Shown: positions 19,499-43,788 of the stretch, piece by piece
Position numbering within the stretch: the stretch's first letter is position 1
How the letters are laid out: every line of letters starts with the position of its first letter
Source of the DNA: an uncultured Candidatus Saccharibacteria bacterium
Lineage (GTDB): Bacteria > Patescibacteriota > Saccharimonadia > Saccharimonadales > CAZARM01
Assembly (NCBI GenBank): GCA_964463635.1
Contig: CAYXCB010000002.1
Span: forward strand, 1-62,260
Direction of reading: 5' to 3'
Length of the DNA stretch: 62,260 nt
The notes under the pieces: generated by a model
Told to the model about the DNA's origin: nothing
Seen by the model: the letters and a program-made list of their open reading frames with translations, nothing else
Databases searched by the model: none
Translations under genes and position numbers: made by a program

Positions 19499-20230
19499 TC
19501 ATTCGACATCGACAACCAGAGCGCGGTGGTCGCTGATCAGAGAGTACTCGGTACTCACGACGCGAATTGTCAGCCCACTAACTGCTATATGGTCGATGCT
19601 CTTCACTGGATTAGGCGCCGGAAACGTCGGCGGGCCGTCAACTAACTCCAGCGCGGTTCCTGAAAGGTGAGCTAGAACCTGGTCTCTCCTGAGGTTGAGG
19701 TCGCCCATCAATACCTGTGGTCCCGGCCGGCCGGCAAGAGCATTGATCACTTTGGGCAATTGTTCTCGTTTAAGACGCGGCTGGGTGGATAAGTGAGTAG
19801 CGGCTACCGAAATTGGGCGGCCGCCAATACGAACTGTGGCCAGTATGGCGTTGCGTGGTTCTTCGCGGCCAACTCTGTGTTCACTGTCGCCAAGCCGCAC
19901 TTGAAACCGTGGGCCGCCCTTTAGCGGCAGGATGTCCTCATCCTCGATTTCACCTCGTACCAGCAGAGCGTTGCCGTAGCTACCCCAATAAAACCTCATT
20001 GTACGGGCAAATCTAACTTCCATGCCTGACGCCTCAGCCGCCATCTTGGCTATATGTCTAAAATTTGACCGAGGGGTTCTTTTATCTACTTCCTGCAATG
20101 CGAGTATGTCGGCATCCAGAGCGGCACACGCTTCCGCCACTTGCTCGGGGTTGCCTCGATATTTATCAGAGAGGGCACCGTGTTGGATATTCCACGTCGC
20201 CAGCCGGATGCTGCCATTCTGCTCACTCAT
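19499..20230 (-). CDS. endonuclease/exonuclease/phosphatase (EEP) family protein
   Basis: IRLATWNIQHG, DILALQEV and the C-terminal SDHRALVVDVE motifs. Confidence 0.85.
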   Translation of the reverse strand: MSEQNGSIRLATWNIQHGALSDKYRGNPEQVAEACAALDADILALQEVDKRTPRSNFRHIAKMAAEASGMEVRFARTMRFYWGSYGNALLVRGEIEDEDILPLKGGPRFQVRLGDSEHRVGREEPRNAILATVRIGGRPISVAATHLSTQPRLKREQLPKVINALAGRPGPQVLMGDLNLRRDQVLAHLSGTALELVDGPPTFPAPNPVKSIDHIAVSGLTIRVVSTEYSLISDHRALVVDVE

Positions 20231-20442: not shown

Positions 20443-20661
20443 ATGGCTACTACAAAAAGCAGGCTCAATATCACTCTTACTCGTGAAGCAAAACGGGCTA
20501 TTGCTAAACTTGCCCAGCGTGATGAAGTACCTGATGCTACGCTTGCTGCTCGCTTGATTGAGACTGCACTTGAGTTGGAGGAGGACACCGTGTGGGATAC
20601 GCTTGCAACTGAGCGTGATACAAAACATGCTTCCTACGTTCCACACGATAAAGCTTGGTAG
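20443..20661 (+). CDS. type II antitoxin, ribbon-helix-helix family
   Basis: 72 aa. SRLNITLTREAKRAIAKLAQRDEVPDATLAARLIE. Overlaps the toxin start. Confidence 0.8.
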   Translation: MATTKSRLNITLTREAKRAIAKLAQRDEVPDATLAARLIETALELEEDTVWDTLATERDTKHASYVPHDKAW

Positions 20662-20939
20662 TAATGATTTTTGAAATAGCTTATCACGAGCTGGTGATAA
20701 CCAATGACATGCCTAAATTGTCCTCTGTCTGGAAAGACAGAATACGTAAAACGATTGAAGAACGTCTCACAATAAGACCAGATTTTTATGGCAAACCTCT
20801 CCGGAAGTCATTGAAGGGCTACCGTAAATTACGAGTTGAAGATTATCGAGTAATTTTTAAGGTTGAAAATAAAACAGTCAAAATATTGATGATCGCTCAT
20901 CGTTCAGTGGTGTACACAAAGATTAGCAAGCGAACATAG
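20655..20939 (+). CDS. type II toxin, RelE/ParE superfamily
   Basis: 94 aa. LKGYRKLRVEDYRVIFKVENKTVKILMIAHRSVVY. Confidence 0.85.
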   Translation: MVVMIFEIAYHELVITNDMPKLSSVWKDRIRKTIEERLTIRPDFYGKPLRKSLKGYRKLRVEDYRVIFKVENKTVKILMIAHRSVVYTKISKRT

Positions 20940-20961: not shown

Positions 20962-21037
20962 TGGTACACCCGGCGCGATGGTTACTTCTTGCGGCGTGCT
21001 CGGAGCCAGCTCCTGTGCGCGTCCTCGAAGATCGAAC
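20962..21037. repeat. exact 18-nt copy of the tRNA-Arg 3' end (20962-20979) plus a conserved 58-nt module (20980-21037)
   Basis: TGGTACACCCGGCGCGAT is identical to 21110-21127. The adjoining 58 nt match 22897-22954 at 53/58 positions. Confidence 0.65.
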
Positions 21038-21070
21038 GTCGCTCGAATCACGGCTCGACTATCGAGCAGA

Positions 21071-21097
21071 ATTTAAAACCGCCACGATGTGGCGGCC
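21071..21097 (-). terminator. intrinsic terminator after tRNA-Arg
   Basis: Minus strand: CCGCCAC-ATC-GTGGCGG followed by TTTTAAATT. Confidence 0.7.
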
Positions 21098-21109
21098 ATA
21101 AAATTCTCC

Positions 21110-21186
21110 TGGTACACCCGGCGCGATTCGAACGCACGACCTCCTGTACCGCAAACAGACGCTCTATCCAGCTGAGCTACGGGTGC
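21110..21186 (-). tRNA. tRNA-Arg (anticodon read as GCG), CCA encoded
   Basis: GCACCCGTAGCTCAGCTGGATAGAGC... with anticodon loop TTGCGGT, T-arm GTGCG-TTCGAAT-CGCGC, discriminator A. 77 nt. Confidence 0.88.
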
Positions 21187-22761: not shown

Positions 22762-22838
22762 GAGACAAACCTGCGGTTTTTCGTTAGCACCGTCGGCTAA
22801 GCCGACCTGTAAACAGGCAGGCTCGCTGCTCTTTTCCC
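22762..22838. repeat. intergenic repeat family copy C
   Basis: GAGACAAACCTGCGGTTTTTCGTTAGC...GCTGCTCTTTTCCC with its own internal hairpins (GTCGGC-TAA-GCCGAC). Confidence 0.5.
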
Positions 22839-22869
22839 TAAAAATAAAAGAGCTCAGGCAAGCCTGAGC
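22838..22869 (-). terminator. intrinsic terminator downstream of the Ser-GCU module
   Basis: Minus strand: GCTCAGG-CTTG-CCTGAGC followed by TCTTTTATTTTT. Confidence 0.7.
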
Positions 22870-22878: not shown

Positions 22879-22954
22879 TGGCGGAGGAGGAGAGATGTTT
22901 ACTTCTTGCGGCGTGCTCGGAACAAGTTCCTGTGCTCGTCCTCGAAGATCGAAC
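22879..22954. repeat. exact 18-nt copy of the tRNA-Ser(GCU) 3' end (22879-22896) plus a conserved 58-nt module (22897-22954)
   Basis: TGGCGGAGGAGGAGAGAT is identical to 23031-23048. The module is homologous to 20980-21037. Confidence 0.65.
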
Positions 22955-22995
22955 TCTCTGCTTTCGCAGTACGAGTTCTCAAATCTACATGCCAA

Positions 22996-23021
22996 TTCAA
23001 AAACCCTGACTAAAGTCAGGG
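22996..23021 (-). terminator. intrinsic terminator after tRNA-Ser(GCU)
   Basis: Minus strand: CCCTGAC-TTTA-GTCAGGG followed by TTTTTGAATT. Confidence 0.7.
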
Positions 23022-23030
23022 CTCTCGAAT

Positions 23031-23123
23031 TGGCGGAGGAGGAGAGATTCGAACTCTCGCTGGAGCTTGCGCCCCACTAATGATTTAGCAAACCATCCCC
23101 TTCAGCCACTTGGGTACTCCTCC
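23031..23123 (-). tRNA. tRNA-Ser (anticodon GCU), CCA encoded
   Basis: Acceptor GGAGGAG/CTCCTCC, discriminator G, anticodon loop TTGCTAA, long variable arm, T-arm GAGAG-TTCGAAT-CTCTC. Confidence 0.88.
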
Positions 23124-27933: not shown

Positions 27934-28038
27934 TTAGGATAACTATAATCTCTTTAGGCCACCCTGGCAAGTCATGTCAACAGTGTAAAGCTTGACAACG
28001 ATGATAATAATTTCACCATAGACCAATTTGACTGTTTG

Positions 28039-28047
28039 TGGTATAAT
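28039..28047 (+). promoter_or_regulatory. extended -10 promoter (TGgTATAAT) of the plus-strand T4SS operon
   Basis: TGGTATAAT lies 50 nt upstream of the ATG at 28098, in the divergent region shared with the pilin operon. Confidence 0.5.
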
Positions 28048-28097
28048 TGCATAATAAACCATTGGTGAGTGAGATTAAGTTTAGGAAAAGGAAAACC

Positions 28098-28916
28098 ATG
28101 GCACACGGAACGGATCACGACAAAATAACTAGCCCCGAAGCCCCGGATTTAACACCTGGCCAGGAAAAGGTTCCGCACGCTGGCCGTCTGCCGGCCGAGC
28201 TAGGTGGCGAACGTCCGGTCAGGATATTCCCTGAATCACTTGAGGAAGCCGACGCCAGAAAGCTAGTACACCCCGTCCCACCTGACGCTAGTCAACTCCT
28301 TGAAACAAAGCGAGGCTGGCTTAGACCTCTTGCTATAGGTGCATTCGGTGCCCTAGGTGTTGGCGTTGCGATTTTTGGACTTACCAGAGGGAGCGACAAG
28401 GACCAGACTGCTGTGGCTGTGGCTACTACCGAAAAAGATCCGTCTACCACCGAGACCACCTATCCGCCCCTTGAACTTTTCCCCTCTTATACTGAGAAGT
28501 TTGAGCCGGAGCCAGTAACAGGCCCCGGAGCAGAGACAATTACATCCCAGCTGCGAAAAGATTTTTATTATGCCATTGTTGCCCGGAAGGATCCTTTGAG
28601 GGAGCAGTACATAAATTACATGGTGAATGATGATCCGGAGTTGGCTACCATACTCCTGGATATATTGACCGACGCACGAGCAGCTTATGCTTTTTCCGGG
28701 CTGTCAGAGGAAGAATACTTTGACCAGCAAATGGACACATGGGAGCCAACTGCCGAAAGTGTCGTAGGTGATGAAACCCTGCGCCTTGCTATTCTTCATA
28801 CCGACCCTACCGTAGGCGAGTCGGCACTGGTCAACTGGGATGTCCGCATGATTGAAGACACTAAGTCACCGACGGGCAAGCGTTTCATAGTTACCGGTTA
28901 CCAACGAGTCGAATAA
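28098..28916 (+). CDS. hypothetical single-pass membrane protein, first gene of the T4SS operon
   Basis: ATG preceded by AGGAAAAGGAAAA. One TM (LRPLAIGAFGALGVGVAIFGL) and an acidic C-terminal domain. The track start (28047) lies in the promoter. Confidence 0.55.
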   Translation: MAHGTDHDKITSPEAPDLTPGQEKVPHAGRLPAELGGERPVRIFPESLEEADARKLVHPVPPDASQLLETKRGWLRPLAIGAFGALGVGVAIFGLTRGSDKDQTAVAVATTEKDPSTTETTYPPLELFPSYTEKFEPEPVTGPGAETITSQLRKDFYYAIVARKDPLREQYINYMVNDDPELATILLDILTDARAAYAFSGLSEEEYFDQQMDTWEPTAESVVGDETLRLAILHTDPTVGESALVNWDVRMIEDTKSPTGKRFIVTGYQRVE

Positions 28917-28988
28917 ATCCCGCTCAACTCCTTGGATCAGATGGTTGTATCTTGTTTATGGCTAGTTTTTTTGCTTATATATACCTAA

Positions 28989-31900
28989 ATGCGTCGTAAA
29001 TTAGCCACCCTTGCAGCCTGCGGACTGATCCTGCTTTCAGTCTCTATGTCTTTATTAGTTAGCCTTTATCCGGTGCCAGTGAGCGCTACGGAAACTGTAG
29101 CAAAGGATGAGGAAAGGCGCCTGCTGATTGCCTTTAAATATTGTCTAAGCAATCAAAAGATCGATGAAAGCGACAATGGGAACCCTGCCGAAGATTTCAA
29201 CGACATATGGGATGACGGCAATAACGGCTTCAGTCGAGAAGACGTTGTGGTGGGGTTTGAGCTGGAAGGTGATAATGGCGTCAAGTCTTGCCAAACTAGC
29301 GTTATGCCAGGGCTGCAGCTTTTAGAGTCAAACGTATCGTCTCCCGAACAAGCCAATGCCCGACTATACGATTTGCTGGCAGATTCGGATGGCGGTAAAT
29401 TTAGGTCAAACCGAGACACCCTAGTTCGCCGAATAGATGAAGCCATTACAAAACTCGGCCCTGACCCCAGGCGAGGCTTTACCGCCAGCCGGCTGGCACC
29501 CCTTATAACGCATTGTTATGACCTTAAGACAGATGACCCCCAGCTAGATGCTGGCAGCCAGAACTTTCGGGCCAAACTAAAAGGTACTACTTATTTCTTT
29601 GAGCACACTAAGCCGGATGACGATAGTTTTGAATGGATCGACCAAGGAGACGGCGGCCGCGATGCGGGCGTCGGACAACGCTACAACACCATCGGCGATG
29701 TTTCACTTTCTTTCACGGCGGGCGGTGCTAAAGATTTTGAATCGTTTGAAGATGACTTTTTCCCATTTGGTTCAGACTTACAAAACTTTACAAATTCTGG
29801 GCACACCGGAACTGGGAATAATGGCATTTTAGATTGTAGGTTTATAAAGGAAAAGGTGGAGTCAGGATTCTTTACTGATGACGTCGTAGAATCAGTCAAT
29901 GTCGACACAAATTCTATAGTAACTGGTATAGATATCGATGGTGACGGTAAGGTTGACGAAGTAATTGAACAAGTAAACACCGGCCCGACTGGCGGTGGGG
30001 CCGGAGACGAGCCCTCGTGTGAAAACGACGGCGGCGAGTCGAGCTGGATCTTGTGTCCGGCGCTCCGGGTGGCCAGCAGCTTTTTGCAAACTATCGACGA
30101 GAAGCTAAATGACTTACTGAGTTTGGATAGCGATTATTACAATAATAGTGACCTGCGTGAAACGTGGCAGAGAATACGCAACCTGGCTTATGTGATCCTG
30201 ATACCTATTATGCTAGTAATGGTTATCAGCACAGCTCTGGGCTTTGAACTTATTAGCGCTTATACAGTTAAAAAAGCTTTGCCTAGATTTTTTGTGGCAA
30301 TACTATTCATGACTCTATCGTTTGATATTACTAAGTTTTTAATTATTCTAACTAATGACGTTGGCCAGGGGATGCAGGGCCTGGTAATTTCCTCTTTCAC
30401 AGGCCAAGGCGAGCTGACGCTGGCCAGTTTGTTTGACCCGGGTGGCTACTCTGGGGCGTTATTTACTGGAGCAGCCGTAGCGGGTGTCGTTCTTGGCCCA
30501 GGACTTATTCTTGTCCTTGCCAGCTATCTATTTGTCGGAGGCCTCGCACTGCTTATAGCGCTGTTGGCTTTTTCTCTCCGTCAAATGCTGCTAATAATGT
30601 CTATGGTCTTGGCGCCTTTAGCAATTTTGGCTTGGATATTCCCTGGCAATGATAAGCTTTGGAAATTATGGTGGGGAGCATTCTCAAAACTTCTCCTGCT
30701 TTACCCGCTTATTATGGTTCTGATTGGTGGTGGCAAGGCATTTGCAGCAATTGTTCAGCAAGTAGGCGTTAGCGACTTTTTGGCAACAGTTCTCAAGTTA
30801 GCGGCATATATAGGTCCTTACTTCTTTATACCAGCCATGTTCAAGTTTGCCGGCGGTATCTTTGCTACCGTTACCGGTATGGCCAACGACCGGAGCAAGG
30901 GCCTCTTTGACCGCCAAAAGAAATACCGTGAGCGTAAGCTTGGCGAAAAATTCACTGACGCCAAGCGCGGTGAGTACTACAAACGAGACAATGCCATTAG
31001 CCGGGCGGTTAATCGCGGCGGTATAGGAATTGGCGCAGGCTACAAAGGCGGGTTTGGTTTTGGCCGACGTGGCGAAGAAGCGCGAGCCAGAATCGGTCAG
31101 GAAGCAGCCACAGACGCTACGCAAAACAACAAAAAACTCCGTGAACTTATTCTCAATGACGACCATGGCGGCGCCGTGATGGCACTAAGTGGAGGAACAT
31201 TACGAGGCGCCGAGCAAGCCTCACATGATTTAGCCGCTGGTTGGATGCGATCAGATCCGACTTTGTCTGCCGCTGACGCTGAAACCCGCCGTGTTCGAGC
31301 TTTGGCCGCAGCACGGGCAACTGGTATTACGCGTACTAATGCCCAGGCCGCGATGACAATGATGATGCAAAACAAAGCTCGCTCAGTTGGTGATGGTGAC
31401 TGGGCTACTGTTCAGGCAGGTATCGATAGGCTCCATCCAAATAACACAACCGCGGCCGAGCAAATGAGAGACAGCGCCCAGTTCTTTGCGCGCGGTAATG
31501 GCCGAGCCGATCTTGGCGGTGCTACGCCTGGTGCCGGATATGGGCGCATCCAGCCAGGGCAATTGGTTACTGGCCATCCTTCTGGAGTACGTGCAGTAAC
31601 ACAAGAGCTACAGACTAGGTATAACATGGCGCTGGCGACTGGTAATTACGATGATGCTACCGATGCAGCCAGCGAAATCACAGCCTTGCGTAGTGTGGCC
31701 GGATCTGCCACGCCAGAAAACCGTGTTATACTTGGCGAATTCTTTGATGGAGTTGCCGGAATCGACACAGGTGATCAAAGAAGCCTGGACGAGCAGTTTG
31801 GTGATTTTCTTTCGTTTACATCCGGAGGTACGGCTGGAACCACAAATGAAGTCACCAATAGAATAAGAGCCCAAGCAGGCCTCTACGATCAAGGAACCAG

Positions 31901-32261
31901 AGGATTGCCCGTGGGCGCCCCGGGTGGACCGGGCGCTCCGGGTGGACCTCCTATCCCTCCCGCACCTCCTGCTGGTGGTGCCGGTGGGGCTGCAGGTGGG
32001 CCTCCCCCTCCTTCTGACCGCCGACTTAAAAGAAACATAGAGCCCCTAGTGGAGCTAGAAAATGGTATAAAACTTTATAAGTTCCAGTATTTGTGGAGCA
32101 ACCAAAGCTACGTTGGTGTTATGGCGCAGGATTTACTTGATACACACCCATCAGCAATTTCTATAGGTGCAAATGGTTTTTATCGCGTAAATTACACTCT
32201 CTTAGGACTAGAGATGCTCACCTGGGAAGAATACCTGAAGCGCACCAAAGCACCAGTATAA
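28989..32261 (+). CDS. VirB6/TrbL-like polytopic T4SS channel protein with a C-terminal tail-spike intramolecular-chaperone (peptidase S74-like) domain
   Basis: 1090 aa. Signal peptide, ~360-aa extracytoplasmic domain, a block of TM helices (about nt 30170-30910), a soluble region, a Gly/Pro linker (GAPGGPGAPGGPPIPPAPPAGGAGG...PPPP), then SDRRLKRNIEPL...VGVMAQDLLDTHPSAI...YRVNYTLLG. Confidence 0.65.
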   Translation: MRRKLATLAACGLILLSVSMSLLVSLYPVPVSATETVAKDEERRLLIAFKYCLSNQKIDESDNGNPAEDFNDIWDDGNNGFSREDVVVGFELEGDNGVKSCQTSVMPGLQLLESNVSSPEQANARLYDLLADSDGGKFRSNRDTLVRRIDEAITKLGPDPRRGFTASRLAPLITHCYDLKTDDPQLDAGSQNFRAKLKGTTYFFEHTKPDDDSFEWIDQGDGGRDAGVGQRYNTIGDVSLSFTAGGAKDFESFEDDFFPFGSDLQNFTNSGHTGTGNNGILDCRFIKEKVESGFFTDDVVESVNVDTNSIVTGIDIDGDGKVDEVIEQVNTGPTGGGAGDEPSCENDGGESSWILCPALRVASSFLQTIDEKLNDLLSLDSDYYNNSDLRETWQRIRNLAYVILIPIMLVMVISTALGFELISAYTVKKALPRFFVAILFMTLSFDITKFLIILTNDVGQGMQGLVISSFTGQGELTLASLFDPGGYSGALFTGAAVAGVVLGPGLILVLASYLFVGGLALLIALLAFSLRQMLLIMSMVLAPLAILAWIFPGNDKLWKLWWGAFSKLLLLYPLIMVLIGGGKAFAAIVQQVGVSDFLATVLKLAAYIGPYFFIPAMFKFAGGIFATVTGMANDRSKGLFDRQKKYRERKLGEKFTDAKRGEYYKRDNAISRAVNRGGIGIGAGYKGGFGFGRRGEEARARIGQEAATDATQNNKKLRELILNDDHGGAVMALSGGTLRGAEQASHDLAAGWMRSDPTLSAADAETRRVRALAAARATGITRTNAQAAMTMMMQNKARSVGDGDWATVQAGIDRLHPNNTTAAEQMRDSAQFFARGNGRADLGGATPGAGYGRIQPGQLVTGHPSGVRAVTQELQTRYNMALATGNYDDATDAASEITALRSVAGSATPENRVILGEFFDGVAGIDTGDQRSLDEQFGDFLSFTSGGTAGTTNEVTNRIRAQAGLYDQGTRGLPVGAPGGPGAPGGPPIPPAPPAGGAGGAAGGPPPPSDRRLKRNIEPLVELENGIKLYKFQYLWSNQSYVGVMAQDLLDTHPSAISIGANGFYRVNYTLLGLEMLTWEEYLKRTKAPV

Positions 32262-32310
32262 GTAATATAATATTGACTATTATGCATTTTTATGCTACCA
32301 TAAAGTAGTA

Positions 32311-33342
32311 ATGGAAACGCCTACAACACAAACAGATCTACAACCCGCTCCTGATGCCCACTTACCGGAAGAGCAGCACAAACATGAACTGCTTGCAAGA
32401 GTAGGCGAGGAACTTAGGCTTGCTTATCATGGCGTGCTAAGAAACATTTCGGAACGGCGCATGTCCATGGGTGGTGACCGCATGGAAACCATGGACCACA
32501 AGGACGCTCTATACGCCGACATAGGCAACATAGCGGCCGGACAGGAAGCTGTGCTTACTGATACCGTTTCAGGTCAGACGGCAAGGCCTAGATCCTTCGT
32601 AGAGCGCTATATGGACAAGCGTCTGGATAAAAAGAACTGGCGAGCTGAACTCCAAGCCTCTGAGCGTAAGCGAACTGTCGCCGCTTACGGCGGTGAACGG
32701 TCGCAGACTATGCGCTCTGATAGCTTGATAGACACTTTTGCGCGTAAACGGGTCGCGGGTTCAGTGTACCGCGCTGGTGATATGTCAGCCGCAGAGTTAA
32801 GGCTCGCCCGCGCAGATATTCAAGCGACCCCCAGGGCGTTTGAGAATTCAGAACAGCGCAAGACCAGGCGTCGAGCTGATGGTGCCGTCAATGATCTAGA
32901 AAAAACAGCTGAGCAACCAGTACTTTCCAGATGGCGCGGGTGGCGGCGCGGGGAAGCCATCAAAGATATAAAGCGCCACCACTCGCGTGCCGAAAAGCAC
33001 CGTGTTCAGGAAGATAAGTTTGCTGCCAGGCGTGCCGAATGGCAAGCTGGAGCGCCTCAAAGAGTTCAAGCCGCGCAAGCGGAAAAGCAAAGGAAGCAGG
33101 AAAGACGTCGTGAACGAATGCAGAGAGTCGGTAATTTCGCACTGTCTGTTGGTCGTGGGATTTCGGATCGATTAAGTCAGCATAAAGACGAAACGGTCAA
33201 TGCTTACCACGAGGGTCTCTCGAATGAAGATGTTGCTGGCGGCCGGGTACAACAGCGTATCGATAAACTAGCTCGCTTAAGCGGCCGAAGATACTCCCGG
33301 ACCAAAACCAAATTAGCGGCTCGTCGCAACCCCGAAGCATAA
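32311..33342 (+). CDS. hypothetical highly basic Arg/Glu-rich soluble protein
   Basis: 343 aa with no TM. Long charged helical runs (RRAEWQAGAPQRVQAAQAEKQRKQERRRERMQR). Visibly GC-richer than its neighbours. Confidence 0.5.
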   Translation: METPTTQTDLQPAPDAHLPEEQHKHELLARVGEELRLAYHGVLRNISERRMSMGGDRMETMDHKDALYADIGNIAAGQEAVLTDTVSGQTARPRSFVERYMDKRLDKKNWRAELQASERKRTVAAYGGERSQTMRSDSLIDTFARKRVAGSVYRAGDMSAAELRLARADIQATPRAFENSEQRKTRRRADGAVNDLEKTAEQPVLSRWRGWRRGEAIKDIKRHHSRAEKHRVQEDKFAARRAEWQAGAPQRVQAAQAEKQRKQERRRERMQRVGNFALSVGRGISDRLSQHKDETVNAYHEGLSNEDVAGGRVQQRIDKLARLSGRRYSRTKTKLAARRNPEA

Positions 33343-33392
33343 CAACAGCATAACCTTTATACTTTAGGGTTTGTCCCTTATAATTAACCCTA

Positions 33393-34520
33393 ATGGCGAC
33401 GTATAAGGTACTTCAAGATATCGAGGCTGAAGATAAGCTGATCGGGCCGCTGAGCTTACGGCAGTTTATTTATGCCATTATGGTGATTGTTATTTTGTTT
33501 GTAGCTTGGCAGATGGCCAGAATCCAAATATTTCTAGGCCTGCCTCTGTTAATTCCAGCGTTATTTTTTGGGTTGCTGGCCGCGCCATTAGGAGCTTATC
33601 AGTCTAGTGAAATCTGGTTGCTGGGCAAAATACGCTTCTTTATAAAGCCGCGCCGGCGGATTTGGGATCAAAGCGGTATCAAACAGCTCGTCACTATTAC
33701 CGTACCGAAGAAAATCGAGCATCAGCTTACAAATAATCTGTCGCAGGTGGAAGTGAAGAGCCGGCTTAAGGCCCTGGCAAACACCATCGACAGCCGCGGC
33801 TGGGCTATCAAAAACGTTAATGAAAACCTATTCGCCCAACCCAGCTATATTAACAACCAAACCACTGATCGCTTGATTGATATTAGTAGCCTGCCACAAG
33901 AAGTAGCTAGTTACGACGTGTCGGCAACGGAGGATATACTGGATGAACAAAATAATCCGACCGCACAGCATTTAGATCAAATGATTAGTACATCTACTAA
34001 GACCCGGCGGCAGGATCTATTAGCAAATATGCGCAACAAGAGCCAGCCGACAACAACTCAAACACAGCCAGATTACTGGTTCATGAATCAAAACCCACCC
34101 GCTAAAACAGCGCCGGGTAGCGCTACGTTTAATAACTCCACCCTTGTAGCTCCTGGCACAACTTCTGACACAAACCCTACTACGAAAGCTGATGAGCAGG
34201 CTATTTTAAACCAGCTGCACGCCGACCACCAAAGAGGGAGTGCGGCTTATGGACACATGCGAACAATTCGTCCTGCGGACGAAAGTACACAGTACACAGT
34301 ACACAGTACACAGCAAAAAACTAAGACCAACGACAGTCAACAGTCAAACCAAGGACAGGCGACCGATAACGGAGGACGGACGACTGGCCGTACGGCCTCT
34401 GATCCTGCTATACTTGGACTTGCTAACAACGATGACCTAGATGTGGCTACTATCGCCCGGCAGGCCAATAAAAAACGAGGGCAAGAACCACCAGATGAAG
34501 TAGTGGTCAGCCTGCGCTAG
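33393..34520 (+). CDS. PrgI/VirB3-like T4SS membrane protein with a long Q/T/N-rich tail
   Basis: N-terminus YKVLQDIEAEDKLIGPLSLRQFIYAIMVIVILF plus a second TM, typical of PrgI-family proteins. The C-terminal ~180 aa are low-complexity and include a heptad-array-encoded STQYTVHSTQ. Confidence 0.65.
   Translation: MATYKVLQDIEAEDKLIGPLSLRQFIYAIMVIVILFVAWQMARIQIFLGLPLLIPALFFGLLAAPLGAYQSSEIWLLGKIRFFIKPRRRIWDQSGIKQLVTITVPKKIEHQLTNNLSQVEVKSRLKALANTIDSRGWAIKNVNENLFAQPSYINNQTTDRLIDISSLPQEVASYDVSATEDILDEQNNPTAQHLDQMISTSTKTRRQDLLANMRNKSQPTTTQTQPDYWFMNQNPPAKTAPGSATFNNSTLVAPGTTSDTNPTTKADEQAILNQLHADHQRGSAAYGHMRTIRPADESTQYTVHSTQQKTKTNDSQQSNQGQATDNGGRTTGRTASDPAILGLANNDDLDVATIARQANKKRGQEPPDEVVVSLR
34282..34309. 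repeat. heptanucleotide array inside the PrgI-like coding region (AAAGTAC ACAGTAC ACAGTAC ACAGTAC)
   Basis: Four 7-nt units read directly from the sequence, translated as ...ESTQYTVHSTQ.... Confidence 0.6.
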
Positions 34521-34525
34521 CAGGC

Positions 34526-34553
34526 GGAGTACTGAGTACTTAGTACAGAGTAC
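34526..34553. repeat. heptanucleotide array flanking cassette 2 (GGAGTAC TGAGTAC TTAGTAC AGAGTAC)
   Basis: Lies between the PrgI-like stop (34520) and the cassette ORF stop (34560). Complementary to 35074..35108. Confidence 0.6.
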
Positions 34554-34559
34554 GGGCTG

Positions 34560-34910
34560 CTAAGACGGTAACTTTCGAATAAAACCAGCCAGTATCATCG
34601 ATACCTCGTTAACCTTTATTAGTAACTCCTTCTGTTCACCTTCTTTGATATAGCCTAGGTCCAACGCAATAATTAGCATGGACTCAACCTCAGCCGCCGA
34701 TCCTTTGGCAATAAAAAGATAGTTTTTAAACGATTTATTGCTCTGTTTGGCATAGCCTTCAGCCACGTTATTCATGATTGATATAACAGCGCGTTGAATT
34801 TGGTCTCTGAAACTATAATCTCGACAGTCATTAAACGCACTATAAATATTAACTGTCAGATCCCGCCCTTTTTGCCAAGCAAGTATTTCTTTAAATGATC
34901 TTATGGGCAT
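34560..34910 (-). CDS. four-helix-bundle protein (IVS-protein family), cassette 2, antisense to the T4SS operon
   Basis: MPIRSFKEILAWQKGRDL...IMNNVAEGYAKQSNKSFKNYLFIAKGSAAEVESML. Start set at the ATG that aligns with the paralogs; the track start (34934, GTG) lies in the repeat array. Confidence 0.85.
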   Translation of the reverse strand: MPIRSFKEILAWQKGRDLTVNIYSAFNDCRDYSFRDQIQRAVISIMNNVAEGYAKQSNKSFKNYLFIAKGSAAEVESMLIIALDLGYIKEGEQKELLIKVNEVSMILAGFIRKLPS

Positions 34911-34930
34911 TGCGTCTATTTTAGCACCTG

Positions 34931-34958
34931 GCACTCTGTACTACACACTTGGTACTAT
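34931..34958. repeat. heptanucleotide array, inner right arm of cassette 2 (GCACTCT GTACTAC ACACTTG GTACTAT)
   Basis: Four 7-nt units just upstream of the cassette ORF start. Confidence 0.5.
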
Positions 34959-35073
34959 AAGCGGTTTCCCCTATACTTGTATTATGTAGTCTTGTTCTTG
35001 TATGGTGGGAATTACTAATGAAAATTATAATCTTGAATACTAAAATTATATACAAATTTGCGACGTTAGATCT

Positions 35074-35108
35074 GTACTCCGTACTCTGTACTCCGTACTC
35101 TGTACTCC
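35074..35108. repeat. heptanucleotide array, outer right arm of cassette 2 ((GTACTCY)x5)
   Basis: GTACTCC GTACTCT GTACTCC GTACTCT GTACTCC. Reverse complement of the RGAGTAC units at 34526..34553. Ends 20 nt before the next T4SS gene. Confidence 0.65.
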
Positions 35109-35127
35109 AAAGTCGGAGACTCTGCTA

Positions 35128-36027
35128 ATGGACCCAAATACACAGAATCAAAACCCCAATAACATACCCGGACCAGCGGCTCCTGGCGTACCACCACCTC
35201 CGCAATATGCGCCCATGCCAGGTATGCCCCCTCAGTACGCTGCCGGACAGCCATCTGCCCAGCCCGGGCCGGCCACGCCGCCACCACCGCACGTAAAAAG
35301 CAACCCTAACAGTACCCAAAACACTTTGCAGATCGCTGAAATTCGCGACGGCGTTGTGATTATGAACGATGGGTCATTCCGTTCGGTTGTTATGGTCAAA
35401 TCGATTAACTTTGACCTGATGAGTCCCCAGGAGCAGGAAGCTGTCGAATTCAGTTTCCAGGGCTTCCTAAATTCATTATATTTCCCGGTTCAGATTTTTG
35501 TACGGTCGCAAAAGGTTGATCTGCGGCCATATATAGAGAAGCTAGATAAAATCCGCACCGAGCACGATAATATGCTACTCGCATTATTAATGGAAGATTA
35601 CATAGATTACATTGCTAATTTGTCTATGCAAACCAACATTATGGATAAACGTTTTTACGTTATAATCCCGTACTACCCGACTACTGATATTCAGAAAGCC
35701 ATCACTCAAAGTAAAGACTTTTTCTCCGGGCTTAAGGGCTTGTTTAGCAATAAGGAATCCCATGTCACTATCAATGAACAAGACCTGGTCAAAGCCAAAG
35801 ACGAGCTGCGCAACCGTGTCCAGTCGGTTTTGAATGGGCTGCAGCAGAGCGGGATCCAGGGTTTGCCGCTTGATACCCAGGAGTTAATCGAGCTCTACTA
35901 CGACACTTATAATCCTGATACAGCTACCCGGCAGCAACTCAAAAACTTTGATGATTTATCAGCCCCGGTTGTAGGCAAGGGCCAGGGCAGTGCGCCTCAG
36001 CCGCAGCTAGACAGGGAGCTCAAGTGA
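35128..36027 (+). CDS. T4SS-associated protein with a proline-rich N-terminus
   Basis: 299 aa. PGPAAPGVPPPPQYAPMPGMPPQY..., then a globular part (LQIAEIRDGVVIMNDGSFRSVVMVKSINFDLMSPQEQEAV). Sits between the PrgI-like gene and VirB4. Function unknown. Confidence 0.55.
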   Translation: MDPNTQNQNPNNIPGPAAPGVPPPPQYAPMPGMPPQYAAGQPSAQPGPATPPPPHVKSNPNSTQNTLQIAEIRDGVVIMNDGSFRSVVMVKSINFDLMSPQEQEAVEFSFQGFLNSLYFPVQIFVRSQKVDLRPYIEKLDKIRTEHDNMLLALLMEDYIDYIANLSMQTNIMDKRFYVIIPYYPTTDIQKAITQSKDFFSGLKGLFSNKESHVTINEQDLVKAKDELRNRVQSVLNGLQQSGIQGLPLDTQELIELYYDTYNPDTATRQQLKNFDDLSAPVVGKGQGSAPQPQLDRELK

Positions 36028-36428
36028 TGAAAACTGAAGCACGAAGCCCGAAAGCAGAAACAAGCACGAAGCCCGAAAGCAGAAACGTAAAACGTTTCGA
36101 TCTAGAGGATCGAACTCTATTATTCGCAAGGGACGTGCGAAGTTTTATTTCTCAGCTTCCTAAAACAACTGCTTATTTTGAGGATGGTAAACAAGTAGTA
36201 CGATCATCGGGATCAGTCGGTGCTAACTATTTAGAGGCGAACGAATCGCTTAGCAAGAAAGACTTTGCGATGCGGATCAAAATTGCTAAAAAAGAAGCCC
36301 GAGAGACTATATACTGGCTTGAGGTAATAACTGCTCCGCCAGAATTATTGGTAGCACAACAGTCTTTGCTAAAAGAAGCGACGGAATTGATGAACATATT
36401 AGGTGCAATTTTAAGGAAGAGTCAGTAA
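36027..36428 (+). CDS. four-helix-bundle protein (IVS-protein family), cassette 3, sense within the T4SS operon
   Basis: ATG overlaps the upstream stop (TGATG). The core RFDLEDRTLLFARDV...SVGANYLEANESLSKKDFAMRIKIAKKEARETIYWL is a diverged member of the family. The first ~20 codons are encoded by the repeat array. Confidence 0.75.
   Translation: MKTEARSPKAETSTKPESRNVKRFDLEDRTLLFARDVRSFISQLPKTTAYFEDGKQVVRSSGSVGANYLEANESLSKKDFAMRIKIAKKEARETIYWLEVITAPPELLVAQQSLLKEATELMNILGAILRKSQ
36036..36086. repeat. repeat array, left arm of cassette 3 (GAANNNN heptads; 23-nt GCACGAAGCCCGAAAGCAGAAAC present twice, period 25)
   Basis: Exact copies at 36039-36061 and 36064-36086. Contains CCCGAAA, which is complementary to the right arm. 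Confidence 0.65.
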
Positions 36429-36455
36429 TGTTTCATAATTCTGATTTCAAATTTG

Positions 36456-36483
36456 TTTCGGGTTTCGGGTTTCGGGTTTCGGG
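36456..36483. repeat. (TTTCGGG)x4 array, right arm of cassette 3; also a canonical G-quadruplex motif
   Basis: Four perfect heptads. G3 tracts at 36460-62, 36467-69, 36474-76 and 36481-83 are separated by TTTC. Ends ~10 nt before the virB4 SD (GGAGG). Confidence 0.7.
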
Positions 36484-36507
36484 TTTGAAAAACCGGAGGT
36501 TCTTCTA

Positions 36508-38424
36508 ATGGCTTTCGGCAAAAACAAACGTCCCCAATTTGATCCTGTTACCCTAGCCCAGAGCCAACGCCATGCTGAACAGCAAGAAGTCCAGGCTGCT
36601 TTCCAGAAAGGCATTACGGCTTTGCGTGATTTTATCGCACCGTCTTCATTGGAATTTGGCAGCACACACTTCCAACTTGGTACCCGCTATGCTCGAACCT
36701 ACTACGTCTATGGGTACCCTCGTCAGGTTTATACGGGCTGGCTATCGCCCATGATCAACATGGACGAAGTAATGGATATGTCGCTGTACATTTATCCTGT
36801 CGAGAGCCAAGTTGTCTTGGAAAACTTGCGCAAAAAAGTTGGCCAACTGGAAGCCGGCCTACAAATCGATGCTGAAAAGGGTCGAGTCCGTGATCCTGGC
36901 AAGCAGGCGGCGATTCAAGACGCCGAAGAAATGCGCGACAAGCTACAGGTTGGTGAAGAGCGCTTCTTCCGCTTTGGTTTTTACTTCACGATTTATGCCG
37001 GTAGCTTGGACGAACTCGAGTTTGTAGCCCACAAGGTTGAATCAATTCTGGGTCAGCAGTTGGTTTACTCCAAGCCGGCAACTTCGCAGCAAGAGCAAGG
37101 GCTCAATAGCACGATTCCGGCCTTTACGGACCAGCTGCAAATCCGCCGCAACTTTTCAACTGGTGCGCTATCAACCAGTTTCCCATTTACCTCAGCTGAC
37201 CTAAGCCAAGAAAATGGTATTTTATACGGTGTAAATATGCATAACTCCGGCCTGGTTATCTTTGATCGTTTTAGTCTAGAAAACAGCAACTCAGTAGTCT
37301 TCGCTAAATCCGGCGCTGGTAAATCGTTTACGGTTAAACTCGAGGCCCTGCGCAGCATGATGTTTGGTACCGAAGTGTTTATCATTGACCCGGAAAACGA
37401 ATACCAGCGAATGGCCGAAGCTGTCGGCGGAGCTTACGTTCGACTAAGTTTAAATTCAGCGACTCGTATCAACCCATTTGACTTACCAAAAGTTGTCGAT
37501 ACTGAAGAAGCCGACAATGCTCTTCGTAGCAACCTGATTACCCTGCACGGCTTGCTCCGACTCATGATGGGCGGAGCCCAGGCCCAAATGCTAGGTGGGG
37601 GCGCTACTATGATGCCGGCTCTAAGCCCGGTTGAAGAGTCAGACTTAGATGCCGCCCTAATTGAAACTTACGCCAAGGCCGGTATTACTAATGACCCCTT
37701 AACTCACACCGGTCAGCCTCCCACGATTGCTGACCTCTATGACACTCTGCTGCATATGGGCGGGAGCGGACCCCAGCTAGCTCAGCGCCTGCGCAAATAC
37801 ACCACAGGTACATTTGCCGGTATTTTCTCTCAGCAAAGCAATACCGATATCAACAACCCGTTAGTAGTCTTTAATATCCGCGACCTAGAAGATGAATTAC
37901 GCCCGGTAGCCATGTACATTGTGCTCAATTACATCTGGAATAAGACTAAATCTGATCAAAAACGCCGTATCTTGATTGTTGACGAAGCATGGCAATTAAT
38001 GAAGTATGAGGATTCAGCCAACTTCTTGTTTAGCCTAGCTAAACGAGCCAGAAAATATAACCTAGGTATTACTACTATCACTCAAGATGTGGAAGACTTT
38101 ATGGGTTCTAGGATGGGTAGAGCTATTGTGGCTAACGCTAGTATGCAGATATTGCTCAAGCAATCACCCTCAGCAGTTGATGTCTTGACTGATGTGTTCA
38201 AATTAACCAGCGAAGAGAAGAAACGTTTAAGCCAATTCCCGGTCGGGCAGGGACTGTTCTTTGCCGGCCAGAACCACGTTCATATCCAAGTTACTGCTAG
38301 TCCAACAGAGACTGGGCTGATTACCACCAACCCTGAGCAAGTCCAGCAAATGGCCTTAGCCGGCGAGTTAAATCAACCCCAAGGCACCATTGACCTTAAT
38401 AACCCGGCACCGCCGGCGGTATAA
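36508..38424 (+). CDS. virB4: VirB4/PrgJ/TraE-type T4SS ATPase
   Basis: 638 aa. Walker A VFAKSGAGKSF, Walker B RRILIVDEAWQL, ITTITQDVEDF, and an N-terminal domain with ...YPRQVYTGWLSPMI.... Confidence 0.9.
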   Translation: MAFGKNKRPQFDPVTLAQSQRHAEQQEVQAAFQKGITALRDFIAPSSLEFGSTHFQLGTRYARTYYVYGYPRQVYTGWLSPMINMDEVMDMSLYIYPVESQVVLENLRKKVGQLEAGLQIDAEKGRVRDPGKQAAIQDAEEMRDKLQVGEERFFRFGFYFTIYAGSLDELEFVAHKVESILGQQLVYSKPATSQQEQGLNSTIPAFTDQLQIRRNFSTGALSTSFPFTSADLSQENGILYGVNMHNSGLVIFDRFSLENSNSVVFAKSGAGKSFTVKLEALRSMMFGTEVFIIDPENEYQRMAEAVGGAYVRLSLNSATRINPFDLPKVVDTEEADNALRSNLITLHGLLRLMMGGAQAQMLGGGATMMPALSPVEESDLDAALIETYAKAGITNDPLTHTGQPPTIADLYDTLLHMGGSGPQLAQRLRKYTTGTFAGIFSQQSNTDINNPLVVFNIRDLEDELRPVAMYIVLNYIWNKTKSDQKRRILIVDEAWQLMKYEDSANFLFSLAKRARKYNLGITTITQDVEDFMGSRMGRAIVANASMQILLKQSPSAVDVLTDVFKLTSEEKKRLSQFPVGQGLFFAGQNHVHIQVTASPTETGLITTNPEQVQQMALAGELNQPQGTIDLNNPAPPAV

Positions 38425-38453
38425 TAAACGAAGCATTACTAAGATAGAGATTT

Positions 38454-42370: not shown

Positions 42371-42379
42371 GAGATTATT

Positions 42380-43696: not shown

Positions 43697-43709
43697 TAAT
43701 CAGCCAAGA

Positions 43710-43788
43710 GGGATGATGTGGCAGCGGTCCATGAAGTGCTGAACCACGACATCGGCGTCAGTAGTGGTTATAAACGTTTGATGGCCGC
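43710..43788. repeat. orphan copy of the last ~26 codons of recF (direct repeat of 44567..44645)
   Basis: 77/79 identical. Both mismatches are synonymous in the RecF frame. Stop codons lie immediately upstream in that frame. Confidence 0.8.

What the first reader, a model, noticed from the sequence alone, without database searches (positions are those of the whole stretch)
20962..21186. tRNA-Arg followed by a terminator, a conserved 58-nt module and an exact 18-nt copy of its own 3' end (positions 59-76); same architecture at tRNA-Ser(GCU)
Seen in sequence:
- Layout read on the minus strand: tRNA-Arg (21186->21110), intrinsic terminator, ~35 nt unique, 58-nt module (21037->20980), then ATCGCGCCGGGTGTACCA, identical to the last 18 nt of the tRNA.
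- At 23123->22879 tRNA-Ser(GCU) has the same layout with its own 18-nt copy (ATCTCTCCTCCTCCGCCA) and a 53/58 identical module.
- In both cases the repeat starts right after T-loop position 58 and ends exactly at CCA.
- Three of the five module differences fall in one small hairpin and keep it paired (GGAGC-CA-GCTCC versus GGAAC-AA-GTTCC).
- The Ser copy is additionally closed by a second strong terminator (22838..22869).

Established knowledge: tyrosine-integrase elements that target tRNA genes leave such 3'-end direct repeats, and the T-loop is a known crossover sublocation. Separately, 18 nt up to m1A58 is the length that reverse transcriptases copy from a tRNA primer (retroviral PBS).

Inference: the most likely reading is two ~130-bp integrase-less miniature integrative elements, or deletion scars, of one element family that has retargeted between tRNAs. 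A tRNA-primed reverse-transcription relic, or a small RNA ending in a tRNA-like 3' tail, cannot be excluded. Neither short ORF across the module (plus strand M[VF]TSCGVLG..., minus strand ..FDLRGRAQEL[AV]PSTPQEV..) can be preferred from five substitutions.
Basis: partly seen in the sequence, partly recalled or inferred. Interest (0 to 1): 0.7.

Follow-up and report, generated by a model that had tools for sequence, protein, structure and literature searches.

The report
Mini tRNA-site insertion elements in Saccharibacteria
Two tRNA genes in this Saccharibacteria window are each followed by a ~130-bp gene-less insert (terminator, conserved hairpin, copy of the tRNA's 3' end) from an apparently undescribed family that sits behind at least 12 tRNA species and smpB with no integrase nearby, so what moves it is unknown.

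Summary
The layout is tRNA, terminator, 58-nt module, then an exact 18-nt copy of tRNA positions 59-76. It occurs at tRNA-Arg(GCG) and tRNA-Ser(GCU), and the two modules are 53/58 identical.

The module defines a family with about 35 copies in Saccharibacteria MAGs and metagenomes. Copies follow 12 tRNA species and, once, the 3' end of smpB. Nothing matched in Rfam, viral contigs, phages or plasmids.

The tRNA copy is split. T-stem 5' strand plus TTCGA lies left of the module and positions 59-76 lie right of it. The module is a 46-nt hairpin with strong covariation (99% of cells paired, 6 of 15 pairs with double changes).

Relatives show empty tRNA-Ser(GCU) sites. They also show tandem build-up of units and arrays with single cargo genes. 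No recombinase or other recurrent partner gene lies nearby.

Best reading (confidence about 0.5): non-autonomous site-specific integrative mini-elements. Each supplies a new tRNA 3' end plus terminator and pushes the old 3' end distally. The hairpin would be the structured part of the recombination site, used by an unlinked enzyme.

A structured or guide-like RNA cannot be excluded. A reverse-transcription relic and inert deletion scars are disfavoured. I rate it a new variant of a known kind, interest about 0.6.

The parts
21110..21186 (-). tRNA-Arg(GCG), intact, CCA encoded. On the integration model its last 18 nt or fewer are element-derived.
   Evidence: ARAGORN; Rfam tRNA 58.7 bits.
21075..21097 (-). 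Intrinsic terminator directly after tRNA-Arg (GGCCGCCA-catcg-TGGCGG-TTTT). It is the 5' part of the inserted unit.
   Evidence: It is 77% identical to the terminator region of the homologous Arg unit in L008.
21053..21067 (-). Stem 0, a small variable hairpin (GCTCGA-tag-TCGAGC).
   Evidence: Equivalent hairpins with other sequences occur in the Glu units.
21032..21050 (-). Stem I region. An upstream strand (..GATTCGAGCGAC) is followed by a' = GTTCGA, a copy of the tRNA T-loop up to A58.
   Evidence: CGTGATTCGAGCG-ACG aligns with the antisense of the T-arm. Only 4-6 bp here, but up to 14 bp in relatives.
20985..21030 (-). Conserved 46-nt hairpin, the core of the module. It has a CTTC/GAAG closing stem, an invariant GG.CG.GC / GC.CG.CC middle helix and a variable apical hairpin GGAGC-TG-GCTCC.
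   Evidence: Alignment A1; covariation count; covariance model R1 84.9 bits.
20980..20984 (-). 5-nt linker TAACC between the hairpin and the tRNA 3' copy.
   Evidence: TAAAC, TAACC, TAATC or TAAGC in type A units.
20962..20979 (-). Tail: exact 18-nt copy of tRNA-Arg positions 59-76 (ATCGCGCCGGGTGTACCA). On the integration model this is the displaced original 3' end (attR-type repeat).
   Evidence: 18/18 match.
23031..23123 (-). tRNA-Ser(GCU), intact.
22992..23030 (-). Terminator after tRNA-Ser (CCCTGAC-ttta-GTCAGGG-TTTTT) inside an extended palindrome that pairs GCCAATTC (overlapping the tRNA 3' end, from 23034) with GAATTGGC.
   Evidence: Read directly from the sequence. The scan did not list it.
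22951..22978 (-). Stem I: GAACTC, inner hairpin CTGC-GAAA-GCAG, then GAGTTC. The 3' strand is a copy of tRNA-Ser T-stem 5' strand plus T-loop (a').
   Evidence: It covaries with the T-stem in L003 (GAACCC/GGGTTC).
22902..22947 (-). Conserved 46-nt hairpin (apical hairpin GGAAC-TT-GTTCC).
   Evidence: R1 85.1 bits.
22897..22901 (-). Linker TAAAC.
22879..22896 (-). Tail: exact 18-nt copy of tRNA-Ser(GCU) positions 59-76 (ATCTCTCCTCCTCCGCCA).
   Evidence: 0 mismatches at +134.
22842..22869 (-). Second terminator after the Ser tail. On the integration model this is the original tRNA-Ser terminator.
   Evidence: 7-bp stem, 5 G-C pairs, T-rich tail; it also scores on the + strand.

Best explanation
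Each site is a miniature, non-autonomous integrative element of one Saccharibacteria-specific family.

Structure of the element (shown): a copy of the target gene's 3' end, its own intrinsic terminator, optional cargo, stem I, the conserved 46-nt hairpin, and a linker.

Proposed integration (inferred): site-specific or short-homology recombination occurs between the element's copy of the tRNA 3' end and the chromosomal tRNA, from T-loop position 59 onward. This rebuilds a functional tRNA that ends in element DNA and is terminated by the element's terminator. The original 3' end is pushed to the far side, where it is now seen as the 18-nt copy next to the hairpin. Later arrivals insert next to the tRNA and push older units outward, which builds arrays.

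Role of the hairpin (inferred): together with the split target copy (left piece a' held in stem I, right piece the tail), it is the structured recognition part of the recombination site. An enzyme encoded elsewhere in the genome or on a helper element would use it.

Shown: the family, its anatomy, the base-pairing, presence/absence polymorphism, tandem build-up, cargo arrays and the lack of a linked recombinase.
Inferred: the recombination chemistry, whether the hairpin acts as DNA or RNA, and the identity of the enzyme.
For: 1. Family and targets. The same module with the same layout follows tRNA-Asp, Glu(CTC/TTC), Tyr, Pro, Trp, Asn, Arg(GCG/TCG) and Ser(GCU/CGA/TGA), and also the 3' end of smpB. 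In each case the flanks match the local target.
2. Presence/absence. Among about 50 Saccharibacteria tRNA-Ser(GCU) loci, many are empty (tRNA, one terminator, then the same downstream gene as in the window). Others carry this unit or unrelated units that also end in a tRNA-Ser 3' copy.
3. Tandem build-up. L089 has tRNA-Tyr, a different unit with a tail, then the standard unit with the same 5' terminator as in L005, then a tail. So the terminator travels with the unit and the newer insert is tRNA-proximal.
4. Cargo. L077 has three units separated by single genes. L004 has units and 8-nt tRNA-end fragments around a nucleotidyltransferase-like gene and a 106-aa gene. L009 has a cupin gene. L006 has a 4.2-kb AbiJ-containing island between tRNA-Asn and its unit.
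5. Structure. On 27 distinct copies, 99% of cells are paired and 6 of 15 pairs show double changes (37 cells). No shuffle out of 500 reaches this, and slid controls give 29-55% paired. Diverged variants swap CTTC/GAAG for CATC/GATG and the middle helix for AGCCA/TGGCT.
6. Constraint. The module is 85-90% identical between species at the same target, against 52-62% for the terminator and 47-64% for downstream DNA. The T-stem change between the window and L003 is mirrored in stem I and the tail.
7. Displaced tails decay at their 3' ends, as a non-functional remnant would (L001, L003, L020, L012, L133).
Against: - No integrase or other recombinase was found. There was no Pfam hit among 20 window ORFs. 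A crude tyrosine-recombinase motif scan of about 600 kb of related loci was negative. No recurrent non-housekeeping neighbour family appeared.
- No autonomous relative and no viral, phage or plasmid copy was found.
- The near-identical hairpin sits beside very different target copies. A classical integrase does not explain that easily.
- In double-stranded form the T-arm core is interrupted by about 52 bp (hairpin plus short linkers), which is not a workable tyrosine-recombinase core.
- The idea that an antisense strand pairs with the tail to rebuild a duplex core failed its test in this family (own 4.16 against control 4.20).
- Folding energy is not unusual (z +0.09 to -0.76).
- No excised form or recent transposition was observed.
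Confidence: 0.5

Rival explanations
1. The unit is (also) a structured non-coding RNA. It would be made by read-through from the tRNA promoter or from an unrecognised promoter, and would consist of stem 0, stem I and the conserved hairpin as a scaffold, with an unpaired ~18-nt 3' tail identical to the tRNA 3' end. It could guide a trans-encoded protein to the tRNA gene, much as a scaffold plus 3' guide does with TTCGA as an adjacent motif. Alternatively it could act as a mimic or decoy of the tRNA 3' end.
For: - Covariation supports a single-strand fold.
- The tail is not paired with upstream sequence above control, so it would be free.
- Length (about 110-130 nt plus an 18-nt tail) and order (scaffold then 3' guide) resemble TnpB/Cas12-type guide RNAs (my own knowledge).
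- Wobble pairs favour the tRNA-sense strand: G.T 10 against A.C 4 in stem I, and the single G.U in the module is on that strand.
- Where the tail is complete, a terminator follows it.
- A guide would explain easy retargeting with a constant scaffold.
Against: - A strong terminator lies immediately upstream, and no promoter-like site lies between it and the module.
- No TnpB, Cas or other candidate partner is in the window or near any copy.
- There is only one G.U in 405 paired cells, which is unusual for an RNA family.
- The tail's 3' half is lost in several copies while the hairpin stays intact.
- Presence/absence, tandem build-up and cargo arrays require DNA mobility in any case.
- No Rfam family matches.
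Confidence: 0.2
2. The hairpin is a separate tiny mobile insertion (MITE-like, for example a remnant of a single-strand HUH-type element). It would target the T-loop sequence TTCGA|AT inside pre-existing partial tRNA copies (attR remnants of ordinary islands), and so inactivate those sites.
For: - The left boundary is constant at 58|59, after TTCGA, or after TATGA in smpB.
- Only the hairpin is shared between units at different targets.
- The hairpin is an imperfect palindrome with a variable tip, like the subterminal hairpins of such elements.
Against: - No module-free partial copy with a contiguous a' plus tail was found next to any of 175 tRNAs examined.
- At least three unrelated inserts (L124, L101-type, L115/L106 variants) occupy the same position in the same split architecture.
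- No transposase was found.
- Stem I accompanies the module everywhere.
Confidence: 0.12
3. The unit is a relic of tRNA-primed reverse transcription. The 18 nt up to A58 would be a copied primer or primer-binding site.
For: In this family the copy starts exactly at position 59 and, in the window, ends exactly at CCA.
Against: - The copy has the same sense as the tRNA.
- Other unit families start at position 55 or 56.
- The smpB copy is 63 nt and is not a tRNA.
- Tails of 6-13 nt occur.
- A second tRNA-derived piece (a', positions 44/49-58) lies on the other side of the hairpin.
- No reverse transcriptase was seen among the ORFs tested.
Confidence: 0.03
4. The units are inert scars left by deletion of larger integrase-bearing islands, with no present function.
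For: Partial tRNA repeats and degenerated remnants are common at tRNA islands (tycheposon preprint, 10.1101/2020.12.28.424599). Some tails are decayed.
Against: - About 30 independent copies have the same ~110-200-bp architecture.
- The module is more conserved than its flanks and shows compensatory substitutions.
- Stem I tracks the target.
- No full-length parent element was found.
Confidence: 0.05

Closest known systems
tRNA-integrated genomic islands with tandem build-up and partial-tRNA repeats (for example tycheposons of Prochlorococcus, 10.1101/2020.12.28.424599; T-loop crossover class of Williams 2002, my own knowledge)
   Same: - The target is the 3' part of tRNA genes (and smpB).
- A direct repeat of the tRNA 3' end flanks the insert.
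- The element restores the gene.
- Newer inserts push older ones outward.
- Cargo is defence-, resistance- or toxin-antitoxin-type genes.
- Empty sites exist in relatives.
   Different: - No integrase or replication genes.
- Units are as small as about 110-130 bp.
- The repeat is split by a conserved hairpin at T-loop position 58|59.
- One near-identical hairpin serves many different targets.
CIMEs (cis-mobilisable elements of Streptococcus ICESt1/St3-type islands) and other non-autonomous att-flanked elements (my own knowledge)
   Same: Flanked by att-type repeats. Lack recombination genes. Presumed to depend on an enzyme supplied in trans. Arise in tandem arrays.
   Different: CIMEs are kilobases long and have known autonomous partners with the same att sites. 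Here no partner is known, and the site carries a covarying hairpin.
Integron gene cassettes and attC sites; CTXphi attP(+) and other elements that use folded single-stranded recombination sites (my own knowledge)
   Same: Arrays of single-gene cassettes separated by structured, imperfectly palindromic sites with a variable tip. Structure is conserved through compensatory change. For CALIN-type arrays, the recombinase is not inside the cassette.
   Different: - No IntI and no GTTRRRY/RYYYAAC core.
- The array is anchored on a tRNA 3' end.
- The middle of the hairpin is conserved in sequence.
- The test for a rebuilt duplex target site failed for this family.
TnpB/Cas12-type guide RNAs (scaffold plus 3' guide) and IS200/IS605 end architecture (my own knowledge); TIGR-Tas (PMC12045711)
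   Same: Order and size match a structured scaffold followed by an ~18-nt target-matching 3' segment. A constant short motif (TTCGA) lies 5' of the matched DNA. TIGR-Tas shows that CPR bacteria host unusual guide systems.
   Different: - No TnpB, TnpA, Cas or Tas gene nearby.
- The 'guide' is also a direct repeat of the adjacent gene.
- tigRNAs are 36 nt with 9-nt spacers arranged in arrays.

Membership tests
tRNA-targeting integrase-driven genomic island / prophage-type att system | The insert is flanked by direct repeats derived from the 3' part of the target gene, and the target gene stays intact. | tested here: met
   18/18 repeats at both window sites. The same holds at 12 tRNA species and smpB.
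tRNA-targeting integrase-driven genomic island / prophage-type att system | A tyrosine or serine recombinase gene lies inside or next to the element. | tested here: not met
   No recombinase Pfam hit in 20 window ORFs or in the L006/L009 cargo. The motif scan was negative. There is no recurrent mobile-type neighbour. The whole genome could not be searched.
tRNA-targeting integrase-driven genomic island / prophage-type att system | Unoccupied sites occur in related genomes, and repeated integrations build tandem arrays. | tested here: met
   Empty tRNA-Ser(GCU) sites. Tandem or arrayed units in L089, L077, L004, L009 and L037.
Non-autonomous att-flanked element (CIME/MITE-like) | A related autonomous element shares the same end or att structure. 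| tested here: not met
   None found in genome, metagenome or viral contigs, or in the phage and plasmid collections, with the patterns used. The exact-pattern searches would miss diverged copies.
Integron attC / gene cassette | R''/R' core sequences (RYYYAAC ... GTTRRRY) and an IntI integrase. | tested here: not met
   The unit ends are GTTCGAT.. and ..TAAAC|ATC, with no core match by inspection. No integrase was found.
Integron attC / gene cassette | A folded imperfect hairpin whose structure is conserved through compensatory change and whose tip varies. | tested here: met
   Covariation. Tip length varies in L001, L078, L115 and L077-1.
Folded single-strand att site that rebuilds a duplex copy of the target (CTXphi-type) | An antisense copy pairs with both halves of the target copy. 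| tested here: inconclusive
   The left half (stem I) pairs, at 6-14 bp; the target-specific part scores 5.0 against 4.2, p=0.06. The right half does not pair above control in this family. It does appear to pair in the L124 and L101-type units by inspection.
TnpB/IscB/Cas12-type guide RNA | An effector gene (RuvC nuclease) lies adjacent, and the RNA is expressed. | tested here: not met
   No such gene near any copy. Expression cannot be tested here, and no promoter-like site was found.
tRNA-primed retroelement (primer-binding site) | An 18-nt segment complementary to the tRNA 3' end, bounded by A58, with an associated reverse transcriptase. | tested here: not met
   The copy has the same sense as the tRNA. 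Length is not fixed across families or targets. No reverse transcriptase was found among the tested ORFs.
Any curated RNA family (Rfam 15) | A covariance-model match. | tested here: not met
   Only tRNAs match, even at E<=10 in the window region and at gathering score in 17 related loci.

The most novel reading that the evidence does not exclude
The conserved hairpin plus the split ~30-nt target copy may be a programmable recombination site. It would act either as a folded single-stranded att site or as a guide RNA, and would be read by an unlinked and so far unidentified Saccharibacteria enzyme. Swapping only the short flanking target copy would redirect integration to the 3' end of any conserved gene. 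That would produce tRNA-anchored, integron-like cassette arrays in these reduced genomes.
Probability: 0.2. Interest if true: 0.85.

Novelty: new variant of a known kind. Interest (0 to 1): 0.62.

Why it matters
Saccharibacteria and other CPR bacteria have tiny genomes, and few mobile elements have been described in them. This family shows that their tRNA 3' ends and smpB are active gene-gain sites. The sites are marked by a small structured module that is not in Rfam and did not turn up in the literature searched here.

About a quarter of the tRNA-Ser(GCU) loci examined carry some unit of this general kind. The arrays hold defence-, resistance- and toxin-antitoxin-type cargo.

The main puzzle is how one near-invariant hairpin comes to sit beside many different, precisely matching target copies with no recombinase in sight. 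If the answer is a target copy that can be swapped at will, read as folded DNA or as RNA, it would be a new integration logic with obvious tool potential. If the answer is an ordinary integrase acting in trans, it is still a useful marker for island boundaries in CPR genomes.

Tried and rejected
- Known RNA family: rejected (Rfam).
- Phage or plasmid attP carrying the module: two viral-contig scans and distant BLAST against phages and plasmids gave nothing.
- Protein coding across the module: rejected, because hairpin indels of 3, 7 and about 13 nt and compensatory changes break any frame.
- Linked protein partner: clustering of 178 neighbouring ORFs gave only syntenic housekeeping families. 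The EEP-family genes near units in the window and in L077 are only 27% identical over 97 aa.
- Integrase in the window or related loci: none by Pfam on 26 ORFs or by motif scan.
- Full antisense copy of the tRNA 3' third after the terminator, forming a three-way junction that rebuilds the duplex T-arm: suggested by local alignments, but own-tail pairing is no better than control. Dropped for this family.
- Fold-back or rolling-hairpin origin: rejected, because the two terminators of a unit are unrelated.
- Long target-site duplication by staggered cuts: rejected, because repeat length varies from 6 to 63 nt and a' lies inside the insert.
- TIGR-Tas: does not fit.
- Unusual thermodynamic stability: absent.
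- About 60 of the 79 metagenome pattern hits, and L010, were GC-rich coding false positives.
Full report
**Observation**

On the minus strand the window has tRNA-Arg(GCG) at 21186->21110 and tRNA-Ser(GCU) at 23123->23031 (ARAGORN; Rfam).
- Each tRNA is followed by a G+C-rich hairpin with a T run (Arg 21097->21075; Ser about 23021->22999).
- Next comes 35-45 nt of unrelated sequence.
- Next comes the 58-nt module (21037->20980; 22954->22897; 53/58 identical; none expected by chance).
- Last comes an exact 18-nt copy of the tRNA's own positions 59-76 (20979->20962; 22896->22879).
- A second terminator closes the Ser unit (22869->22852).

**Extended anatomy**

Related copies show that the tRNA-derived sequence is larger than 18 nt and is split.
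- Directly left of the conserved part lies the T-stem 5' strand plus TTCGA. I call this piece a'. It is up to 15 nt identical to the local tRNA, for example CCTTCGTAGGTTCGA at tRNA-Tyr and GGTCGCTGGTTCGA at tRNA-Asn.
- Directly right of the conserved part lie positions 59-76 (the tail).
- So the conserved insert interrupts a copy of roughly positions 44/49-76 exactly between A58 and position 59.
- An upstream strand pairs with a' to form stem I. It is 6-14 bp, often has a small inner hairpin, and changes with the target.
- The conserved core is a 46-nt hairpin (window 21030->20985 and 22947->22902) followed by a 5-nt linker.
- A second subtype has ATTC/GAAT instead of CTTC/GAAG and an extra hairpin before the tail.

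**Is the hairpin real?**

I aligned 27 distinct copies (A1) and counted pairs for the proposed structure.
- 99% of 405 cells form standard pairs.
- 6 of 15 pairs show changes on both sides (37 cells).
- No shuffle out of 500 reaches the observed pairing or covariation score.
- Sliding the partners gives 29-55% pairing.
- The closing stem shows C-G, A-U and G-C at one pair and C-G/U-A at another. Four of the five apical pairs covary.
- The middle helix is invariant in this set. In diverged variants it is replaced by AGCCA/TGGCT, with CATC/GATG as the closing stem (L133).
- Tip length varies (L001 +7 nt, L078 +3 nt, L115 and L077-1 about +13 nt). Together with the compensatory changes, this excludes a coding reading.
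- Only one G.U occurs in 405 cells.
- Predicted folding energy is not unusual (z +0.09 to -0.76), so the support for the structure is evolutionary, not thermodynamic.

**Distribution**

- Exact-pattern scans found the module only in Saccharibacteria MAGs and matching metagenome contigs. Two further MAGs are labelled Limnocylindria/Limnocylindrales (L005, L106), and a tRNA-Ser locus (L127) is labelled Acidoferrum; these are possibly mis-binned.
- Covariance model R1 found 29 strong and about 10 weaker copies in 609 kb of fetched loci.
- Wherever a target can be identified, the copy lies downstream of it and in the same orientation.
- Targets seen: tRNA-Arg(GCG, TCG), Ser(GCU, CGA, TGA), Asp, Glu(CTC, TTC), Tyr, Pro, Trp and Asn, and once the 3' end of smpB, where the copy after the module is 63 nt.
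- Nothing matched in Rfam, viral contigs, phage genomes or plasmids.
- Six literature searches gave no description of it.

**Evidence for DNA mobility**

A scan with the tRNA-Ser(GCU) anticodon arm retrieved 53 Saccharibacteria loci.
- Many are empty: tRNA, one terminator, a promoter, then the same downstream gene as window ORF 22768->22139.
- Others carry this unit (window, L003, L108; variants L106, L115).
- Others carry unrelated units that also end in a copy of the tRNA-Ser 3' end (L124, L101, the L092/L109/L136/L117/L123 group, L105/L122).
- Across 175 tRNAs in the fetched loci, about 33 have such a downstream non-tRNA copy.

Tandem and cargo-bearing arrangements:
- L089 has tRNA-Tyr, terminator, a different unit, a perfect 19-nt tail, then a terminator homologous to the one that directly follows tRNA-Tyr in L005, then the standard unit and a slightly decayed tail. 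So the terminator belongs to the unit, and newer inserts land next to the tRNA.
- L077 has three units separated by single genes.
- L004 and L009 have units and short tRNA-end fragments around a nucleotidyltransferase-like gene, a 106-aa gene and a cupin gene.
- L006 has a 4.2-kb island with an AbiJ-domain protein between tRNA-Asn and the unit that matches that tRNA.
- L037 has two successive units after smpB.

This is the pattern of repeated integration at a gene's 3' end. It is already known from tRNA islands such as tycheposons.

**Constraint**

- At same-target loci in different species the module is 85-90% identical. The unit's terminator region is 52-62% identical and downstream DNA 47-64%.
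- Where the tRNA T-stem differs between species (GAGTTC..CTCTC in the window, GGGTTC..CCCTC in L003), stem I and the tail differ in step.
- Several tails keep only their first 6-13 nt while the hairpin is intact (L001, L003, L020, L012, L133).

**What is missing**

- No recombinase. Pfam on 20 window ORFs gives a ParE toxin, an EEP-family protein, ComF-like, Hsp20, DnaN, RecF-like, YidC, a PrgI-family protein and so on, but no integrase, transposase, TnpB or reverse transcriptase.
- The cargo ORFs tested have no recombinase hit.
- A crude tyrosine-recombinase motif scan of about 600 kb was negative.
- Clustering of 178 neighbouring ORFs shows only syntenic housekeeping families.
- No promoter-like site lies between the first terminator and the module.

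**Mechanism**

The best-supported account is a non-autonomous integrative mini-element.
- The element carries a copy of the target's 3' end followed by its own terminator.
- Recombination within that copy (from position 59 onward) rebuilds the tRNA and leaves the old 3' end next to the hairpin.

This explains the direct repeats, the two terminators, the empty sites, the tandem build-up and the decaying tails.

The role of the hairpin and stem I is inferred: a structured recognition element for an enzyme acting in trans.

I tested one specific version. In it, an antisense strand pairs with both a' and the tail, so that a single strand rebuilds a duplex T-arm as in CTXphi or integron attC sites. 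Stem I exists, but pairing of upstream sequence with the unit's own tail is no better than with other units' tails (4.16 against 4.20). That version is therefore not supported for this family, although the L124 and L101-type units look as if they do it.

The weak strand signal favours the tRNA-sense strand as the folded one: G.T 10 against A.C 4 in stem I, and the single G.U in the module.

**Rivals**

- A structured RNA (scaffold plus free 18-nt 3' tail, with TTCGA next to the matched DNA) would neatly explain retargeting with a constant hairpin. It has no promoter, no partner gene and almost no G.U pairs, and it would still need DNA mobility.
- A separate tiny insertion that targets TTCGA in old attR remnants is contradicted in two ways. 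No module-free split-site precursors were found. Unrelated inserts occupy the same position.
- A tRNA-primed reverse-transcription relic is contradicted by the sense of the copy, the variable lengths, the smpB target and the second tRNA-derived piece.
- Inert deletion scars are contradicted by the conservation and covariation.

**Verdict**

This is a real, reproducible and apparently undescribed family. Its genomic behaviour is that of a known kind (tRNA-site integrative elements that build up in tandem). Its architecture is unusual: a miniature size, no recombinase, and a covarying hairpin that splits the target copy at T-loop position 58|59, with one hairpin serving many targets. The mobilising activity, and whether the structure works as DNA or as RNA, remain open. 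The decisive experiments are listed under next steps.

Noticed in passing
window 20449-20939 (+): A ParD/RHH-like antitoxin ORF (about 20449-20676, read by eye) overlaps a ParE-family toxin (20655-20939, Pfam PF05016). It lies immediately beyond the tail of the Arg unit, which is a typical cargo position.
   Followed up: partly
window 19499-20230 (-); L077 332-1066: Endonuclease/exonuclease/phosphatase-family genes lie next to units in both the window and the L077 array. They are only 27% identical over 97 aa, so no specific link is shown.
   Followed up: yes
window 22992-23034; related loci L002, L003, L023, L041, L061, L080, L005: The terminators after these tRNAs are extended palindromes: an A-tract, a G+C hairpin and a T-tract, which then continue so that TGG(TGA) pairs with the tRNA's own (TCA)CCA end. 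The same design follows the displaced tails. It may be bidirectional termination or may have a role in 3' processing.
   Followed up: partly
L124, L101, L092/L109/L136/L117/L123, L105/L122, L089 (first unit), L090, L113, L127, L100: At least four other, mutually unrelated small unit types lie downstream of Saccharibacteria tRNA-Ser, Arg and Tyr genes. Each ends in a copy of the tRNA 3' end, starting at T-loop position 55, 56 or 59. None is in Rfam.
   Followed up: partly
L077 1-2200; L004 5300-6800: Cassette-like arrays. Single genes (EEP-like, a 197-aa unknown, a nucleotidyltransferase-like 181-aa protein, a 106-aa unknown) are separated by units or by 6-8-nt fragments of the tRNA's extreme 3' end (GCTGCCA, GGTCACCA). 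This suggests a second integration sublocation at the CCA end.
   Followed up: partly
L037 1248-1900: The same module family targets the 3' end of smpB. It leaves a 63-nt copy of the gene end and a second, decayed module further downstream.
   Followed up: yes
L006 1395-5800: A 4.2-kb island lies between tRNA-Asn and its matching unit. It carries an AbiJ_NTD3 plus DUF559-like protein and three ORFs without Pfam hits.
   Followed up: partly
window 28000-47200: A PrgI-family protein (33393-34520), an amidase (41222-42370) and large neighbouring ORFs suggest a type IV secretion-like cluster. RecF-like (44557-45618) and DnaN (46047-47132) suggest the replication-origin region is nearby.
   Followed up: no
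L005 and L106 (labelled Limnocylindria/Limnocylindrales), L127 (labelled Acidoferrum): These contigs carry Saccharibacteria-type tRNA loci and units but sit in MAGs labelled as other phyla. They are probably binning errors.
   Followed up: no
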